The notes under the pieces: model-generated
The model's database searches: none
Seen by the model: the letters and a program-made list of their open reading frames with translations, nothing else
What the model was told of the DNA's origin: nothing
Source of the DNA: a phage
Length of the DNA: 64,000 bases
Sequence record: OZ335958.1
Reading direction: 5' to 3' (one strand)
Shown: positions 20,524-43,294 of the stretch, piece by piece
Numbering within the stretch: position 1 is the first letter of the stretch
How the letters are laid out: the number at the start of each line of letters is the position of its first letter
Made by a program: the position numbers and the translations under genes

Positions 20524-20564
20524 TTGATAGGGTAATAGTACCACAGAGGAACAGTCTTGTAAAC
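20524..20564 (-). promoter_or_regulatory. T4-type early promoter candidate
   Basis: ttgatagggtaatagtacca...gtaaac (reverse complement GTTTAC ~17 bp TACTATTACCCTATCAA). Confidence 0.45.
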
Positions 20565-21964: not shown

Positions 21965-22005
21965 TTGATAGGGTAATAGTATCACACTACTACCCTACTG
22001 TAAAC
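21965..22005 (-). promoter_or_regulatory. T4-type early promoter candidate
   Basis: ttgatagggtaatagtatcac...ctgtaaac motif. Confidence 0.45.
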
Positions 22006-32671: not shown

Positions 32672-33145
32672 TTATTTGAATGATTTGACGTACTGAATAG
32701 AGCCTTTGCTATTCACGAAAGCGATTTTACCATTTTTGTTATACATGGTAGCAGTACGCTGATAGCCATAAGTTTGCTTACCAGATTGATAACCAACTAG
32801 TGCGAAATTATCTTCACCCATTTTATTCTGCTTAGCGCGGATACGTTCATGACCGTGCGCCATAAGAACCTTAGCATCACCAGTTGCAATGGATCTACGA
32901 GTTTTTTCATCTTCAACTGTATTAACAAAGTCGTCAAATGAATCAAATTTAGCATGAGATTTATTATACAGTTTTCCATCTACTGCATAATTATATCCCT
33001 GTACATCCATCTCAACTTCTGTACCATCATCTAATACAGCAGTGATTTTTTGACCTTTTTTAAATTTCAAAAGATCAGTAAAAGATTCAGCAATAATTTG
33101 AGAATTAATAGCTGCTTCAGTGATAAATTCTTGATATGTTTTCAT
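32672..33145 (-). CDS. Internal-protein-like protein with capsid-targeting leader
   Basis: 157 aa starting MKTYQEFITEAAINSQIIAES: T4 IP capsid-targeting sequence consensus with I-x-E prohead-protease sites. Confidence 0.6.
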   Translation of the reverse strand: MKTYQEFITEAAINSQIIAESFTDLLKFKKGQKITAVLDDGTEVEMDVQGYNYAVDGKLYNKSHAKFDSFDDFVNTVEDEKTRRSIATGDAKVLMAHGHERIRAKQNKMGEDNFALVGYQSGKQTYGYQRTATMYNKNGKIAFVNSKGSIQYVKSFK

Positions 33146-33154
33146 GTGTTTCCT

Positions 33155-33571
33155 TTAAATGTAAATATTTTTGCCGTAGTATTTATACCAGTGTGGCTTC
33201 ATTAAAATTTTTTCATCGAGTCGTTGTTGACTCAATTTAATAGCCGATTTGCATTGGTTATAATCATTTTTCCATTCTGCTGGAATATCGCTGATGTCAG
33301 GAACTTCAGTATCTTTTATACTAAACCCACGTTTTAAGCATTCCGCTATAATGTCTGATTGACGCTTTCGCAAAAATTCTAACTTATCATAAAAGAACGT
33401 AACATGACCAGAACCTAAAATAAACTCGGAAGATATTTTAAAATCTTTAACCCGCTTACCATTTGCCACATGTTTACGAACTATACCAAAAACACGTGGC
33501 AATTCACGGTATTCTGCGATTAAATGTTGATCAGCAAGTTCAGATACTAAAGTCAAATTAATACGAGTCAT
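33155..33571 (-). CDS. denV: Endonuclease V (pyrimidine-dimer DNA glycosylase) DenV
   Basis: 138 aa [29 protein letters not shown]; matches T4 DenV. Confidence 0.92.
33179..33186 (-). promoter_or_regulatory. Late promoter (TATAAATA on minus strand) upstream of the IP-like gene
   Basis: Plus-strand tatttata ~34 bp upstream of the 33145 start. Confidence 0.5.
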
Positions 33572-38872: not shown

Positions 38873-38948
38873 TGGTCGAGGCAGTAGGGATCGAACCTAC
38901 GACCCAGGACTTAGAAGGTCCTTGCTCTTCCTTCTGAGCTATGCCTCG
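38873..38948 (-). tRNA. tRNA-Arg (anticodon UCU)
   Basis: Hand-folded cloverleaf: acceptor CGAGGCA/UGCCUCG, anticodon loop CUUCUAA, T-loop UUCGAUC, CCA encoded. Confidence 0.8.
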
Positions 38949-38952
38949 GATT

Positions 38953-39027
38953 TGGCGGACGTGATAGGATTCGAACCTATAACCAATCGCTTAACAGGCG
39001 ATCGCTCTGCCATTGAGCTACACATCC
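38953..39027 (-). tRNA. tRNA-Asn (anticodon GUU)
   Basis: Acceptor GGAUGUG/CACGUCC, anticodon loop CUGUUAA, T-loop UUCGAAU, CCA encoded. Confidence 0.75.
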
Positions 39028-39031
39028 AAAT

Positions 39032-39118
39032 TGGTGGGGAGTGATGGAGTCGAACCACCCGAGTCGCAATGACAATGGATTTACAGTCCACACCGCTACC
39101 TCTACGGGATAACTCCCC
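39032..39118 (-). tRNA. tRNA-Tyr (anticodon GUA), long variable arm
   Basis: Acceptor GGGGAGU/ACUCCCC, anticodon loop ACUGUAAAU, T-loop UUCGACU, CCA encoded. Confidence 0.75.
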
Positions 39119-39127
39119 AAATTAATT

Positions 39128-39202
39128 TGGTGGCCCTGGGTGGAATTGAACCACCATCTGGCGATTATGAGTCGCTTGCTTGAACCTTCCAGCTACAGGG
39201 CC
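39128..39202 (-). tRNA. tRNA with anticodon CAU (Met, or Ile if lysidine-modified)
   Basis: Acceptor GGCCCUG/CAGGGCC, anticodon loop CUCAUAA, T-loop UUCAAUU, CCA encoded. Confidence 0.75.
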
Positions 39203-39203
39203 T

Positions 39204-39279
39204 TGGTGCTGATTGACGGAATCGAACCGCCGACCTTCTCATTACAAGTGAGTTGCTCTACCTACTGAGCTAAATCAGC
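39204..39279 (-). tRNA. tRNA-Thr (anticodon UGU)
   Basis: Acceptor GCUGAUU/AAUCAGC, anticodon loop CUUGUAA, T-loop UUCGAUU, CCA encoded. Confidence 0.8.
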
Positions 39280-39284
39280 AAAAC

Positions 39285-39374
39285 TGGCGGAGGCGATAGG
39301 ATTTGAACCTATGAGTCGCCGGAGCGACTGCCGGTTTTCAAGACCGGTGCATTAAACCACTCTGCCACGCCTCC
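39285..39374 (-). tRNA. tRNA-Ser (anticodon UGA), long variable arm
   Basis: Acceptor GGAGGCG/CGCCUCC, anticodon loop CUUGAAA, T-loop UUCAAAU, CCA encoded. Confidence 0.8.
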
Positions 39375-39376
39375 AG

Positions 39377-39450
39377 TCTCCATACAAGGATTTGAACCTT
39401 GGACCTCCTGATCCCAAATCAGGCGCTCTACCAAACTGAGCTACACGGAG
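39377..39450 (-). tRNA. tRNA-Pro (anticodon UGG), CCA not encoded
   Basis: Acceptor CUCCGUG/UAUGGAG, anticodon loop UUUGGGA, T-loop UUCAAAU; abuts tRNA-Ser as in the T4 Pro-Ser dimeric precursor. Confidence 0.75.
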
Positions 39451-39460
39451 TAAATTAAAT

Positions 39461-39534
<74 letters not shown>

Positions 39535-39539
39535 AAATT

Positions 39540-39626
39540 TGGTGCGAGAAGTGGGACTCGAACCCACAAGGAAATCATTCCGCAGCATTTTAAGTGCTGT
39601 GCCTTTACCAATTTGACCATTCTCGC
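39540..39626 (-). tRNA. tRNA-Leu (anticodon UAA), long variable arm
   Basis: Acceptor GCGAGAA/UUCUCGC, anticodon loop CUUAAAA, T-loop UUCGAGU, CCA encoded. Confidence 0.8.
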
Positions 39627-39627
39627 G

Positions 39628-39700
39628 CTGGGAATAAAGGACTCGAACCTTTGCATCCTGGAATCAAAATCCAGTGCCTTACCAACTTGGCTAATTCCCA
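39628..39700 (-). tRNA. tRNA-Gln (anticodon UUG), CCA not encoded
   Basis: Acceptor UGGGAAU/AUUCCCA, anticodon loop UUUUGAU, T-loop UUCGAGU; abuts tRNA-Leu as in T4 Gln-Leu precursor. Confidence 0.75.
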
Positions 39701-39786: not shown

Positions 39787-40302
39787 TTAAAGCAAATTAA
39801 ACATTTTAACGGTCGGCAAAACAATTTCTTCTTCTATATAAGAGTATTTAACACTCTCAACTACACGCAAAAAATCATAATCATAATACTCAGAAGCATT
39901 ACCTAAAATATTAATAAGTCCTTCAAGCACTTTATTACCATTCACAAAAAATAAGTCAAATACACGTTCTTCATCTTCTTCAGATTTATTACCAAGATCA
40001 ACTTCTATGCGAAAGACCTTTTTAATGAATTCTGGATAAAGCTGGTCTGAGAACAGTCCTTCAACCAAGTATTCATAAATAAAAAGAGATTGCTCGCTGA
40101 ACAAACCATTACCGCAATAGCGCTCAATTTTAGTACTAGAATATCTGCTTTTAAATTTCTTTAAAAGATACTGAAATTGTAAGATTTCATGCTCTTCTAC
40201 GCCAAACAGTGTTTTAGTTTTATAGTTGTCACCATCATTTTCCCAGGTAGTGACATCAATTACGTAGCCCTGCGGAATTGTAGTACCTAAACAAATATTC
40301 AT
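39787..40302 (-). CDS. Hypothetical protein
   Basis: 171 aa ORF. Confidence 0.5.
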   Translation of the reverse strand: MNICLGTTIPQGYVIDVTTWENDGDNYKTKTLFGVEEHEILQFQYLLKKFKSRYSSTKIERYCGNGLFSEQSLFIYEYLVEGLFSDQLYPEFIKKVFRIEVDLGNKSEEDEERVFDLFFVNGNKVLEGLINILGNASEYYDYDFLRVVESVKYSYIEEEIVLPTVKMFNLL

Positions 40303-40598: not shown

Positions 40599-40997
40599 TC
40601 AGCCTTCATCAACAATAGTGTGAGTATTGGCATTTACGATTTGCCACCAATCAAAGCGATTAGAATCCATCGGTTTGTTTTCATTTTCTTTGATAATGTC
40701 ACGGAGTTCATCTTCAGAGAATGCTTTAGCAATTAAATCGGTATACCCACCACGGGGATAATAATTATCACCTGCAAACAAAAGGAAATTTACCTTCCCG
40801 GAAGGAACATATGCTTCCTTAGGATACTTGTTTCCTGCGTGGTCAACCACTTCAATATAACGGTAAGGAATATCGGTTCTTTCAACCCATTGCCATGCCG
40901 CTGCAGGGGAATCGAAAGCATCTACACCTAAACGATTATCTTCATCTTTAGACGGATTATTTTCGTAATCCGCATATACATAATATTCAACGTTCAT
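40599..40997 (-). CDS. Hypothetical protein
   Basis: 132 aa ORF. Confidence 0.5.
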   Translation of the reverse strand: MNVEYYVYADYENNPSKDEDNRLGVDAFDSPAAAWQWVERTDIPYRYIEVVDHAGNKYPKEAYVPSGKVNFLLFAGDNYYPRGGYTDLIAKAFSEDELRDIIKENENKPMDSNRFDWWQIVNANTHTIVDEG

Positions 40998-41182
40998 TAT
41001 TCACCTTTAGAAATTTTATCCATAACAATAGCAATTAAACCAATTAAAAATGCTACTACAAGTGAAAAAACATTTTCTGCCGTAGTCAATAATCCGCATA
41101 TAAATCCAACAAACATTGAAAAACTGAAAGCGGAAGCAGAAATTGCAATAGCAACATTTCGAATTAATTCACAACGTTTCAT
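40997..41182 (-). CDS. Small membrane protein (start at MKRCELIR with GAGGAGAA Shine-Dalgarno)
   Basis: ORF-track 40997-41323 trimmed; two hydrophobic helices. Confidence 0.5.
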   Translation of the reverse strand: MKRCELIRNVAIAISASAFSFSMFVGFICGLLTTAENVFSLVVAFLIGLIAIVMDKISKGE

Positions 41183-41240
41183 TTTATTCTCCTCAGTAGT
41201 TGATAGGGTAATAGTATCACTACCCCATCTAAAAGTAAAT

Positions 41241-41474
41241 TTATTTTTTACGAAAAATTGATTTATTTTCTGCTGCCCATTTTTCAATAACTGCAGCAGG
41301 ACCAGTAACAACAATTTTATCACCGTAATCTTCTGCGGCGAGTTGACCGAAATTATCTAATGCATCACGAAGAACTCCATGAGGCATTTCACCCATTTTA
41401 TCTTTCTTGCCGGTGTAAATAAACTCAACTTTTACATCAGAAGATTCAGCGATAAATTCTTGATAAGTTTTCAT
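41241..41474 (-). CDS. Internal protein (IPI-locus type) with capsid-targeting leader
   Basis: 78 aa from MKTYQEFIAESSDVK..., exact T4 IP leader MKTYQEFIAE. Confidence 0.65.
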   Translation of the reverse strand: MKTYQEFIAESSDVKVEFIYTGKKDKMGEMPHGVLRDALDNFGQLAAEDYGDKIVVTGPAAVIEKWAAENKSIFRKK

Positions 41475-41502
41475 TTTAGTTTCCATTCGATTGTTTTGTT
41501 TT

Positions 41503-41541
41503 GATAGGGTAATAGTATCACAACTAAAACCCTATGTAAAC
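41503..41541 (-). promoter_or_regulatory. T4-type early promoter candidate
   Basis: ttgatagggtaatagtatcac...ctatgtaaacaactttgtgaaattatttt. Confidence 0.45.
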
Positions 41542-41553
41542 AACTTTGTGAAA

Positions 41554-41811
41554 TTATTTTAAATCTTCTAATCGTTTCTTCATCTTAGAACCATTTTTAG
41601 CAATTTCTCCTGCATCGGAGCATAATGCTAAAAGTGCTTTAACTTTCGTTTGGTCTCCTTTAAAAGATGAAGGATCTACTGCAGCAGCAAGTTCTTTAAT
41701 ACGAGAGAAAAGACGCTCAGCTTCAGCTAAAGCCATTCCAAGCTTTACTTCCATACCGTGGGAAGATTCAGTGATAGTAGTTTTTGCAGCAAACTCTTTG
41801 AAAGTTTTCAT
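41554..41811 (-). CDS. Internal-protein-like small protein with IP-type leader
   Basis: 85 aa starting MKTFKEFAAKTTITES (leader variant with I-T-E site). Confidence 0.55.
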   Translation of the reverse strand: MKTFKEFAAKTTITESSHGMEVKLGMALAEAERLFSRIKELAAAVDPSSFKGDQTKVKALLALCSDAGEIAKNGSKMKKRLEDLK

Positions 41812-41832
41812 TTTATTTTCCTAATTAATTTT

Positions 41833-41871
41833 GATGAGGTAATAGTATCACTACCTCATCAGCATGTAAAC
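41833..41871 (-). promoter_or_regulatory. T4-type early promoter candidate
   Basis: ttgatgaggtaatagtatcac...catgtaaacaactttgtgaaattatttt; near duplicate of 41503-41541. Confidence 0.45.
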
Positions 41872-41883
41872 AACTTTGTGAAA

Positions 41884-42568
<685 letters not shown>

Positions 42569-42569
<1 letters not shown>

Positions 42570-43294
42570 TATAGTACCTTTAGTGTATTTTTAATTTTAG
42601 AAAAAAGTTCTTCAAGAGAACCATCGTTTGTAATTACTAAATCGCCATCACGAATTGGCAATCCAGCTTCTGTAATATGAGTATCATTGGATTTTTGACC
42701 AGGACGAACTACATGAATTACTGTAGCACCCATCGCCCTAGCCGCATCCATTTCATGATCTTGACGAGTATCAGGAACGATATAATAATCATAACCTGAG
42801 TTAAATTTATCAAGATAATCTAAAGCAAATAATTTTACCCAATACATGCGGTCGAAGTTATTAACAATCAAATCCGTACCTAGGGCTTGCATCAGACGAC
42901 GGATTGACCATTGATCTTCAATATTATTTATAACGTCAGCAATCTTGTTAAATGCTACGAAATTAACTGATTCTTTTCCTTCGTCATCAAAAACAAACAC
43001 ACCTTTAATTGGGCTTTTACTATTAAGATAGCAAAATGCTTGTTCCATAATCGTAATTACTTCTAATTTAGTCAGATTTAAATTAGTCTCACGATCATAG
43101 TCAATTCCTTCAAACTCTCTACGAGTTAAGCAAGGATAGTCAGTGTTTGCTGCAAATACAGACCATGCATAAGCCAATGCATCCTTAATAGGACCAGCAA
43201 GTTGATATTTAACTGCAGAATAATTATTCATGATAAAATCTGCAGTAGTATCTTTTCCACTACGCTTTACACCACTTAAAAAGATTAGTTTCAT
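42569..43294 (-). CDS. 1: Deoxynucleoside monophosphate kinase gp1
   Basis: 241 aa, P-loop GVKRSGKDT; matches T4 gp1. Confidence 0.9.

What the first reader, a model, noticed from the sequence alone, without database searches (positions are those of the whole stretch)
41241..41811. Two adjacent small genes with IP-type capsid-targeting leaders at the ipI locus
The first ORF carries the exact leader MKTYQEFIAE and the second a variant, MKTFKEFAAKTTITE. Each is preceded by a nearly identical early-promoter block. T4 has a single ipI gene here encoding an inhibitor of the GmrS/GmrD restriction enzyme, and this locus is known to be hypervariable among T-even phages. Neither body sequence is one I can assign to IPI with confidence, so these are candidate alternative anti-restriction proteins.
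Basis: partly seen in the sequence, partly recalled or inferred. Interest (0 to 1): 0.5.

Follow-up and report, generated by a model that had tools for sequence, protein, structure and literature searches.

The report
Known T6-type ip5–ip6 internal-protein genes
The two small genes are the already named internal-protein genes ip5 and ip6 of T-even phages, in the same arrangement as in phage T6; a near-identical copy of ip6 was recently shown to protect a phage from the host restriction enzyme McrBC, so the finding is correct but ordinary.

Summary
On the minus strand, between 57B (an Acb1 homologue) and trna.4, lie two ORFs. One is 41811..41554 (85 aa, MKTFKEFAAKTTITE…) and the other is 41474..41241 (77 aa, MKTYQEFIAE…). 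Each follows a copy of a ~70-nt early-promoter/stem-loop block, and a third copy precedes trna.4.

Neither gene is new. The 85-aa protein is Ip5 (98.8% identical to RB14 Ip5; also in T2, T6, RB51, PST). The 77-aa protein is Ip6 (96% identical to the T6 copy). The whole cassette is about 98% identical in DNA to T6 and to BASEL phage Bas37. At least 158 deposited phage genomes carry it.

Outside the leaders, neither protein resembles T4 IPI, IPII or IPIII. MKTYQEFIAE is the IPII/IPIII leader, not the IPI leader. The Ip5 leader is the IPI type.

The Ip6 orthologue Bas37_0260 (75/77 identical) was reported in a 2025 preprint to be required against McrBC. Ip5 has no known target. Published tests of ip4–10 against GmrSD variants found nothing reproducible. 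That preprint's supplementary data show an uncommented fitness cost of Ip5 disruption on strain CFT073 only.

Packaging of either protein is inferred from the leaders, not shown. Verdict: already known, low interest.

The parts
41554..41811 (-). ip5 coding sequence (85 aa plus stop), the first IP gene downstream of 57B
   Evidence: ORF. phrog_3499 'internal head protein', E=3.9e-49, full length. 98.8% identical to RB14 'Ip5', PST 'ipV' and fFiEco06 'ip5', and 97.6% to the T2 copy. UniRef name 'Ip5', phage RB70. 84/85 identical to Bas37_0261.
41767..41811 (-). Ip5 propeptide, residues 1-15 (MKTFKEFAAKTTITE). This is an IPI-type capsid-targeting leader ending in the I-T-E cleavage motif of the gp21 prohead protease.
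   Evidence: BLASTP aligns it with the T4 IPI leader MKTFKEFTSTTTPVSTITE, 54% over 26 residues and nothing beyond. L/I-x-E sites listed. Motif definition from PMC9026906. Cleavage is inferred.
41241..41474 (-). ip6 coding sequence (77 aa plus stop). An alternative in-frame ATG lies at 41486.
   Evidence: ORF. phrog_8111 'internal virion protein', E=5.1e-52. 96% identical to the T6 copy and 75% to VR7 'Ip6'. 75/77 identical to Bas37_0260. dN/dS of 0.17 against VR7.
41445..41474 (-). Ip6 propeptide, residues 1-10 (MKTYQEFIAE). It is identical to the experimentally defined 10-residue capsid-targeting sequence of T4 IPIII and IPII and ends in I-A-E.
   Evidence: 10/10 identity with the first ten residues of T4 IPII and IPIII, by direct comparison of the sequences printed. 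CTS definition and targeting/processing residues from PMC9026906.
41829..41899 (-). Promoter/stem-loop block 1 (PeSL-type) upstream of ip5. The -35 TTTACA is at 41870-41865 and the -10 TACTAT at 41847-41842. A 13-bp hairpin lies at about 41861-41832. The block begins in the last codons of 57B.
   Evidence: Repeat family D1. Promoter scan. RNA fold -20.5 kcal/mol, z=-4.95. Nearly identical to the T4, RB14, T6 and T2 57B>IP intergenic blocks.
41499..41569 (-). Promoter/stem-loop block 2 upstream of ip6. The -35 is at 41540-41535 and the -10 at 41517-41512. A hairpin lies at about 41543-41496. The block begins in the last codons of ip5 (GAT TTA AAA TAA, the same as the end of 57B).
   Evidence: Fold -18.2 kcal/mol, z=-3.24. 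Its upstream half equals the T4 ipI>trna.4 block.
41198..41268 (-). Promoter/stem-loop block 3 upstream of trna.4. It has a weaker -35 (TTTACT) and a hairpin at about 41229-41202.
   Evidence: Repeat family D1, 61% identical to the reference copy. Core motif hit. Fold -17.1 kcal/mol, z=-3.97. Its downstream half equals the T4 ipI>trna.4 block.
41884..42339 (-). Gene 57B, the upstream boundary of the locus. It is an Acb1 anti-CBASS homologue.
   Evidence: Pfam PF23474 Acb1, E=2.6e-60. Synteny with T4 57B.
40997..41182 (-). trna.4, the downstream boundary of the locus. It encodes a 61-aa hydrophobic protein of unknown function.
   Evidence: phrog_1692, E=6e-35. Synteny with T4 trna.4.

Best explanation
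**Identity.** The region is the T6-type allele of the ipI hyperplastic locus of a Tequatrovirus. It holds two independent gene cassettes, ip5 and ip6. Each has its own sigma-70 early promoter/stem-loop block, its own Shine-Dalgarno sequence and a short ORF.

**Proposed pathway (inferred from the leaders).**
- The N-terminal leader takes each protein into the prohead scaffolding core.
- The gp21 prohead protease then cuts after the L/I-x-E motif: after E15 in Ip5 and after E10 in Ip6.
- This leaves mature proteins of about 70 and 67 residues. They stay in the head and are injected with the DNA.

**Ip6.** Mature Ip6 is predicted to be a small ferredoxin-like alpha/beta domain with near-zero net charge. 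It neutralises the type IV restriction enzyme McrBC, most likely by binding the enzyme directly. A T6-type phage would need this because it has alpha-glucosyltransferase but no beta-glucosyltransferase. Part of its hydroxymethylcytosine therefore stays unglucosylated and is a target for McrBC.

**Ip5.** Mature Ip5 is predicted to be a basic two-helix hairpin. It is most likely a second, host-specific counter-defence protein whose target is still unknown.

**Cassette exchange.** The repeated promoter blocks extend into the last codons of the preceding gene. They are the homology through which such cassettes are gained, lost and swapped between T-even phages.

**What is shown here.** Gene identity, leaders, repeats, synteny, purifying selection and near-identity to Bas37_0260.

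**What is taken from the literature for orthologues.** The McrBC phenotype, the sufficiency of the CTS for targeting, and the gp21 cleavage motif.

**What is inferred.** Packaging and cleavage of these two proteins, direct binding to McrBC, and any role for Ip5.
For: **Identity and synteny**
- The gene order is gene 1, 57A, 57B/Acb1, ip5, ip6, trna.4, trna.3, trna.2, then tRNAs.
- The 1-kb region is 99.4% identical to Shigella phage SHFML-26. At least 158 phage records cover 80% or more of it.
- The cassette is about 98% identical to T6 and Bas37 over 730 nt.
- Names: Ip5 (for RB70, for RB14) and Ip6.

**Leaders**
- Ip6 matches the IPII/IPIII CTS 10/10. The Ip5 leader aligns only with the IPI leader.
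- CTS sufficiency and the L/I-x-E motif are described in PMC9026906.
- L/I-x-E sites fall at E10 and E15.

**Real genes**
- dN/dS is 0.17 for Ip6 against the VR7 copy.
- Both match PHROG profiles over their full length.

**Function of Ip6**
- It is 75/77 identical to Bas37_0260.
- Insertions in Bas37_0260 are depleted about 30-fold on K-12 BW25113 relative to clinical strains (log2FC +4.6 to +5.0).
- The deletion mutant is specifically sensitive to McrBC.

**Rationale for McrBC**
- T2 and T6 have alpha-GT only, plus an enzyme that extends residues that are already glucosylated.
- Alpha-GT alone reaches about 80% glucosylation, which is reported as the threshold for protection from McrBC/McrA (PMC13216743).

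**Structures**
- The Ip5 model has pLDDT 72 and two long helices.

**Cassette repeats**. The PeSL concept and the T4/PST consensus TTTACW-N17-TAYWAT come from PMC4122927.

**Ip5 lead**
- Insertions in Bas37_0261 give log2FC -2.09 (adjusted p < 1e-5) on CFT073.
- They give -0.01 on CFE299 and on CFE303.
Against: - No virion proteomics or N-terminal sequencing for Ip5 or Ip6 was found in the accessible literature. Packaging and cleavage are therefore inferred from the leaders alone.
- The McrBC result comes from a single preprint, on an orthologue that differs at the first two mature residues (SS here, TA in Bas37).
- Both genes have early promoters, so protein made after infection, rather than injected protein, could give the phenotype.
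- Mature Ip6 is about neutral (pI 6.5), unlike the basic T4 IPs (pI 9.0-9.7).
- Ip5 has two further internal L/I-x-E sites, at E30 and E40. It might be cut into smaller pieces.
- No late promoter (TATAAATA) lies in the intergenic blocks. The nearest on this strand is at 42925-42932 inside gene 1, so late expression would depend on read-through.
- The CFT073 effect on Ip5 comes from transposon data. It is accompanied by a smaller effect in the upstream gene 57B (-1.56), so polarity or a neighbour effect is not excluded.
- The fold matches are generic and give no hint of mechanism.
Confidence: 0.8

Rival explanations
1. Both proteins are alternative inhibitors of GmrSD-family enzymes, the same job as T4 IPI, each aimed at a different GmrSD variant.
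For: - T4 Ip1, Ip2 and Ip3 each inhibit one specific GmrSD variant (PMC12373910).
- The genes occupy the ipI position.
- CFT073, the only strain where Ip5 disruption costs fitness, carries a GmrSD homologue, c5421 (PMC4437046, Fig. 8 legend).
Against: - T2 carries Ip5 and T6 carries Ip5+Ip6. Both are still restricted by the UT (UTI89_C2960) enzyme and by the ECOR21 GmrSD, and exogenous Ip3 was needed to restore their plaquing on the ECOR17 GmrSD. T2 is also restricted by the CT596 GmrSD.
- ip4-10 were tested against a panel of GmrSD groups, and no interaction was reproducible (PMC12373910 text and Supplementary Fig. 9).
- The Ip6 orthologue maps genetically to McrBC, not to GmrSD.
Confidence: 0.12
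2. They are generic head-filling or DNA-associated internal proteins, used for charge neutralisation or packaging. They have no specific anti-defence target, and the locus varies by drift.
For: - T4 heads hold about 1000 internal protein molecules, whose lysines contact DNA phosphates (PMC3012670).
- Mature Ip5 is basic (pI 9.2).
- Both Bas37 orthologues are non-essential in the reference library.
Against: - Mature Ip6 has no net charge (11 K+R against 11 D+E).
- Both orthologues show host-specific fitness effects rather than general ones.
- Ip6 is under purifying selection (dN/dS 0.17).
- Every T-even IP with a known function so far is a type IV restriction inhibitor.
Confidence: 0.06
3. The proteins act only as early cytoplasmic proteins made after infection. 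The leader is an inherited relic, and injection is not needed for function.
For: - Each gene has its own early-type promoter, and no late promoter lies in the intergenic blocks.
- T4 Ips work when expressed from the host chromosome (PMC12373910).
Against: - The Ip6 leader is 10/10 identical to a sequence that suffices to load foreign proteins into T4 heads (PMC9026906).
- The leader is conserved across Ip6 homologues even where the body has diverged to 75%.
- A restriction enzyme acts on entering DNA before any phage protein can be made. Only a co-injected inhibitor is in time.
Confidence: 0.07

Closest known systems
Ip5 and Ip6 of phage T6 (also T2, RB14, RB51, RB70 and PST for Ip5; VR7 for Ip6); naming attributed to Repoila et al. 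1994 (EMBO J 13:4181), which I could not read
   Same: These are the same genes. The proteins are 96-99% identical, and the order is the same: 57B, ip5, ip6, trna.4. The intergenic blocks match, and DNA identity to T6 is about 98% over the whole cassette.
   Different: Only point differences. Examples are A9 for T9 in the Ip5 leader, SS for TA at the start of mature Ip6, and a 3-nt indel upstream of ip6.
Bas37_0260 of Escherichia phage KarlGJung (Bas37), the McrBC inhibitor reported in bioRxiv 10.1101/2025.11.20.689424
   Same: 75/77 identical to the 77-aa ORF, with the same locus and the same neighbours.
   Different: Two substitutions at mature residues 1-2. The McrBC phenotype was measured in Bas37, not in this phage. 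The preprint calls the protein previously unknown and does not equate it with Ip6.
T4 IPI / IPI* (GmrSD inhibitor)
   Same: Same chromosomal slot behind the same 57B-proximal promoter block. The Ip5 leader is of the IPI type (MKTFKEF…ITE). Size is similar, and Ip5 is similarly basic.
   Different: No sequence similarity beyond the leader. The predicted folds differ from the published IPI* description of two beta sheets flanked by terminal helices. Phages that carry Ip5/Ip6 but lack IPI are restricted by CT596 GmrSD.
T4 IPII and IPIII (GmrSD-variant inhibitors at the e/denV locus)
   Same: The Ip6 leader MKTYQEFIAE is identical to theirs. They follow the same packaged-and-injected logic.
   Different: They lie at a different locus and have unrelated mature sequences. 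Their reported targets also differ: ECOR21 and ECOR17 GmrSD, against McrBC for the Ip6 orthologue.
PeSL elements (promoter-early stem-loops) of T4-like phages (Arbiol et al. 2010; Comeau et al. 2014, PMC4122927)
   Same: Repeated intergenic blocks containing TTTACW-N17-TAYWAT, a stem-loop, a Shine-Dalgarno sequence and a start codon. They flank variable ORFs in a hyperplastic region.
   Different: Here the strongest predicted hairpin spans the spacer and the -10 hexamer, rather than lying wholly upstream of the promoter as in the published figure legend.

Membership tests
T-even internal proteins (CTS-bearing, head-packaged, injected) | N-terminal capsid-targeting leader of the MKT(Y/F)(Q/K)EF type, with an aromatic residue at position 4 and F at position 7 | tested here: met
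   Ip6 matches the IPII/IPIII CTS 10/10. Ip5 has MKTFKEF, as IPI does. The residue roles come from PMC9026906.
T-even internal proteins (CTS-bearing, head-packaged, injected) | gp21 protease site L/I-x-E at the end of the leader | tested here: met
   I8-A9-E10 in Ip6 and I13-T14-E15 in Ip5. Actual cleavage was not tested.
T-even internal proteins (CTS-bearing, head-packaged, injected) | Gene located in one of the two IP hyperplastic loci (57B-trna.4, or near e/denV) | tested here: met
   Synteny with T4, RB14, T6, T2 and VR7.
T-even internal proteins (CTS-bearing, head-packaged, injected) | Protein physically present in the mature head and injected with the DNA | not testable with these tools
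   No proteomic report for Ip5 or Ip6 was found. This is inferred from the leader only.
T-even internal proteins (CTS-bearing, head-packaged, injected) | Small basic protein (a usual property, not strictly defining) | tested here: inconclusive
   Mature Ip5 has pI 9.2 and mature Ip6 has pI 6.5. The T4 IPs range from 9.0 to 9.7.
IPI (ipI orthologues, GmrSD CT596 inhibitor) | Full-length sequence similarity to T4 IPI | tested here: not met
   BLASTP: Ip5 aligns over leader residues 1-26 only. Ip6 shows nothing significant (E=0.087). RB14 carries a true ipI next to ip5 for contrast.
IPI (ipI orthologues, GmrSD CT596 inhibitor) | IPI* fold: two beta sheets flanked by N- and C-terminal helices | tested here: not met
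IPI (ipI orthologues, GmrSD CT596 inhibitor) | Protects against CT596 GmrSD | not testable with these tools
   The literature argues against it. T2 carries Ip5 and no IPI, and it is restricted by CT596 GmrSD (PMC4437046 Table 3).
Ip6 / Bas37_0260 (McrBC inhibitor) | Full-length near-identity and the same locus | tested here: met
   75/77 identity. Same neighbours and 98% DNA identity.
Ip6 / Bas37_0260 (McrBC inhibitor) | Loss of the gene makes the phage sensitive to McrBC | not testable with these tools
   Reported for Bas37 only.
Ip5 (phrog_3499) | Full-length match to the family profile and to named Ip5 proteins | tested here: met
   E=3.9e-49 over residues 1-85 of 85. 98.8% identical to RB14 Ip5. 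91% identical to RB70 Ip5.
PeSL promoter/stem-loop cassettes | Repeated intergenic block with TTTACW-N17-TAYWAT, a stem-loop, a Shine-Dalgarno sequence and a start codon, next to variable ORFs | tested here: met
   The third copy has a weaker -35 and fails the scan threshold.

The most novel reading that the evidence does not exclude
Ip5 is an injected inhibitor of a defence system present in uropathogenic E. coli CFT073 and absent or inactive in K-12, CFE299 and CFE303. One candidate is the GmrSD homologue c5421 in the immigration control region. That would make this locus a two-gene kit against two different type IV restriction enzymes. The only support is an uncommented line in the HIDEN-SEQ supplementary table: Bas37_0261 shows log2FC -2.09 on CFT073 only.
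Probability: 0.3. Interest if true: 0.4.

Novelty: already known. Interest (0 to 1): 0.15.

Why it matters
**For the scan.** It matters little. The genes, their names, the T6-type arrangement, the variability of the locus and the anti-restriction hypothesis are all published. The function of one gene has already been reported.

**Two small bookkeeping gains.**
- The 'previously unknown' McrBC inhibitor Bas37_0260 is the long-named Ip6 of phage T6. It is present in about 246 deposited genomes.
- Ip5 is present in about 270 genomes at 80% identity or more. It has a host-specific signal on CFT073 in existing data that nobody has followed up.

**Practical use.** The internal-protein content of a phage (here Ip4+Ip5+Ip6, and none of T4's Ip1-3) is a plausible predictor of which type IV restriction systems a therapeutic T-even phage can overcome.

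Tried and rejected
**Searches that gave nothing useful**
- Pfam: no significant family for either protein.
- NCBIfam: none.
- PDB sequence search: nothing below E=0.6.
- Foldseek against the PDB for Ip5: only generic helical hairpins and designed coiled coils, all with E>0.6.
- BFVD for Ip6: only Ip6 itself and weak hits.
- Exhaustive phmmer of mature Ip6 against 1.8 billion representatives: only two Ip6-family clusters, plus an NHL-repeat protein. I judge that match spurious, since it comes from repeated DKDK…G…P…GV stretches.
- The word-indexed homologue searches returned only T-even phage proteins.

**Literature limits**
- Repoila et al. 1994, Bair et al. 2007 and Rifat et al. 2008 are not held in the library. 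What I say about them rests on how held papers cite them and on record annotations.
- A search for 'Ip5'/'Ip6' was swamped by inositol phosphates.
- No virion proteomics for these proteins was found.
- I could not confirm that 'ip5' and 'ip6' in the Silas et al. panel have these exact sequences, because no sequences are in the held supplements.

**Readings rejected**
- Chance ORFs. They are conserved, dN/dS is 0.17, and they match profiles over their full length.
- An ordinary ipI gene. There is no similarity in the body of either protein.
- A DNA mimic of the Ocr type for Ip6. Its net charge is about zero.
Full report
**What is in the sequence.** The finding's coordinates bound two minus-strand ORFs exactly. 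The upstream one, 41811..41554, encodes 85 aa beginning MKTFKEFAAKTTITE. The downstream one, 41474..41241, encodes 77 aa beginning MKTYQEFIAE. An in-frame ATG at 41486 would add four residues. However, the GGAAA Shine-Dalgarno spacing and the RefSeq annotation of near-identical genomes favour the 77-aa start.

The neighbours follow the T4 order:
- gene 1, dNMP kinase (42569-43294);
- 57A (42339-42569; Pfam GP57);
- 57B (41884-42339; Pfam Acb1, E=2.6e-60);
- the two ORFs;
- trna.4 (40997-41182), trna.3 and trna.2;
- an extra 171-aa ORF;
- ten tRNA genes.

T4 has one gene, ipI, in the same slot.

The leader motif MKT[FY][KQ]EF occurs three times in the window, against 0.0002 expected.

**Identity.**
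- A 1-kb query across the locus is 99.4% identical to Shigella phage SHFML-26. It is covered at 80% or more in 158 phage records.
- The 85-aa protein matches phrog_3499 ('internal head protein') end to end. It is 98.8% identical to proteins annotated Ip5 or IpV in RB14, ime09, fFiEco06 and PST, 97.6% to the T2 copy and 95.3% to RB51 Ip5. UniRef carries 'Ip5' from phage RB70.
- The 77-aa protein matches phrog_8111 ('internal virion protein') end to end. It is 96% identical to the T6 copy and 75% to VR7 'Ip6, similar to bacteriophage T6 Ip6'.
- Phage T6 has exactly this arrangement. The window, T6 and Bas37 are about 98% identical in DNA across the whole cassette.
- Other alleles of the slot: ipI alone (T4), ip5+ipI (RB14), ip5 plus a different 102-aa IP (T2), and ip9 with three other ORFs before ip6 (VR7).

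**Leaders and family membership.**
- Pairwise BLASTP against T4 IPI, IPII and IPIII finds similarity only at the N-termini.
- The Ip6 leader is identical to the ten-residue capsid-targeting sequence of IPIII and IPII. That sequence alone is enough to load foreign proteins into T4 heads. Residues 4 and 7 matter for targeting, and residues 8 and 10 for processing (PMC9026906).
- The Ip5 leader aligns with the longer IPI leader MKTFKEFTSTTTPVSTITE.
- Both leaders end in the L/I-x-E motif of the gp21 prohead protease, at E10 and E15. This predicts mature proteins of 67 and 70 residues.
- Mature Ip5 is basic (pI 9.2), like the T4 IPs. Mature Ip6 is about neutral (pI 6.5).
- Ip6 is under purifying selection, with dN/dS of 0.17 against the VR7 copy.
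- Packaging and cleavage of these two proteins are inferred. I found no proteomic evidence.

**The repeated promoter blocks.**
- Three copies of a ~70-nt block lie at 41829-41899, 41499-41569 and 41198-41268.
- The first two match TTTACA-17-TACTAT with an extended TG. This fits the T4/PST PeSL consensus TTTACW-N17-TAYWAT (PMC4122927).
- Each block folds into a hairpin much more stable than its shuffles, with z from -3.2 to -5.0. The stem spans the spacer and the -10 hexamer. No U-tract follows, so it is not a canonical terminator.
- Aligning the blocks from this window, T4, RB14, T6 and T2 shows a mosaic. The upstream half of the block before ip6 equals the upstream half of the T4 ipI>trna.4 block. 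The downstream half of the block before trna.4 equals its downstream half.
- The repeat before ip6 starts inside the coding sequence. Both 57B and ip5 end with GAT TTA AAA TAA (DLK-stop).

This is the anatomy expected if cassettes are exchanged by recombination between the repeated blocks. Comeau et al. make that proposal and note that similar observations were made at the T4 IP locus in 1994.

**Structure predictions.**
- Ip5 (pLDDT 72) is a hairpin of two long helices, with only generic coiled-coil matches.
- Neither fits the published description of IPI*.
- Sequence searches of Pfam, NCBIfam and the PDB, and an exhaustive search of 1.8 billion representatives, place both families only in T-even-type phages.

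**Function of Ip6.**
- The standard view is that T-even IPs are injected anti-restriction proteins. T4 Ip1, Ip2 and Ip3 each block one GmrSD variant (PMC12373910).
- A November 2025 preprint (10.1101/2025.11.20.689424) studied Bas37, phage KarlGJung (MZ501089). Gene bas37_0260 lies in this same slot, and its product is 75/77 identical to the window's Ip6.
- Transposon insertions in it were depleted about 30-fold on K-12 BW25113 relative to clinical strains.
- The preprint reports no such defect on a K-12 strain lacking McrA, McrBC and Mrr.
- The deletion mutant was specifically sensitive to McrBC.
- The authors describe it as previously unknown. By sequence it is Ip6.
- A rationale follows from published glucosylation data. 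T2 and T6 have alpha-GT only, plus an enzyme that extends residues that are already glucosylated. Alpha-GT alone reaches about 80%, which is reported as the threshold for protection from McrBC/McrA (PMC13216743). This step is my inference.

**Function of Ip5.** No function is known.
- T2 carries Ip5 and T6 carries Ip5+Ip6. Both are restricted by the UT (UTI89_C2960) enzyme and by the ECOR21 GmrSD. Exogenous Ip3 was needed to restore their plaquing on the ECOR17 GmrSD. T2 is also restricted by the CT596 GmrSD.
- ip4-10 gave no reproducible inhibition of a GmrSD panel.
- In the HIDEN-SEQ supplementary tables, insertions in the Ip5 orthologue bas37_0261 (84/85 identical) are depleted about 4-fold on CFT073 (adjusted p < 1e-5). 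They are unaffected on CFE299 and CFE303.
- The upstream gene 57B shows a smaller effect on CFT073, so polarity is possible.
- CFT073 carries a GmrSD homologue, c5421. This is a lead, not a result.

**Verdict.** It consists of named genes in the arrangement of a classical phage, present in hundreds of genomes. The proposed function is the textbook hypothesis, and for Ip6 an orthologue has been tested experimentally. I score interest low. The residual open question is the target of Ip5.

Noticed in passing
window 32672-33145 (-): A third ORF with a capsid-targeting leader: 157 aa, MKTYQEFITE…. It is 99.4% identical to RB51 'Ip4' (phrog_3155). It lies downstream of denV (33155-33571), not between e and denV where T4 has ipIII and ipII. 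This phage therefore carries Ip4+Ip5+Ip6 and none of T4's Ip1-3.
   Followed up: partly
window 41884-42339 (-): Gene 57B is a clear Acb1 anti-CBASS homologue (Pfam PF23474, E=2.6e-60). RefSeq and PHROGs label it 'RNA ligase'. Together with the IP genes it makes this stretch a small counter-defence cluster.
   Followed up: partly
window 39787-40302 (-): A 171-aa ORF (phrog_2290, function unknown) lies between trna.2 and tRNA-Gln. It is absent from the T4, RB14 and T6 loci. A CDS of the same size and position is annotated in SHFML-26, and T2 has a 516-nt CDS in the same region.
   Followed up: no
window 38873-39700 (-): Ten tRNA genes lie in one uninterrupted array (Arg, Asn, Tyr, Met, Thr, Ser, Pro, Gly, Leu, Gln). 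T4 and SHFML-26 have a homing-endonuclease gene (segB type) inside the array. The window has no space for one.
   Followed up: no
window 20527-20544 and 21968-21985 (-): Two more copies of the promoter/stem-loop core GTGATACTATTACCCTAT lie elsewhere in the window. They are probably further PeSL-type cassettes in another variable region.
   Followed up: no
window 41554-41565 and 41884-41895 (-): 57B and ip5 end with the same four codons, GAT TTA AAA TAA (DLK-stop). The direct repeat that flanks the ip5 cassette therefore begins inside coding sequence.
   Followed up: yes
L008 (Bas37, MZ501089) 2064-2321; corresponds to window 41554-41811: In the HIDEN-SEQ Extended Data Table 7, insertions in the Ip5 orthologue bas37_0261 show log2FC -2.09 (adjusted p < 1e-5) on CFT073. 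On CFE299 and CFE303 the value is -0.01. The preprint's main text does not mention bas37_0261.
   Followed up: partly
Phage records (e.g. VR25, slur07, Shinka) next to gene e: About 228 records hold an Ip5-like protein (about 47-52% identical) next to the lysozyme gene e. This is the other IP locus, which suggests that IP cassettes move between the two hyperplastic loci.
   Followed up: no
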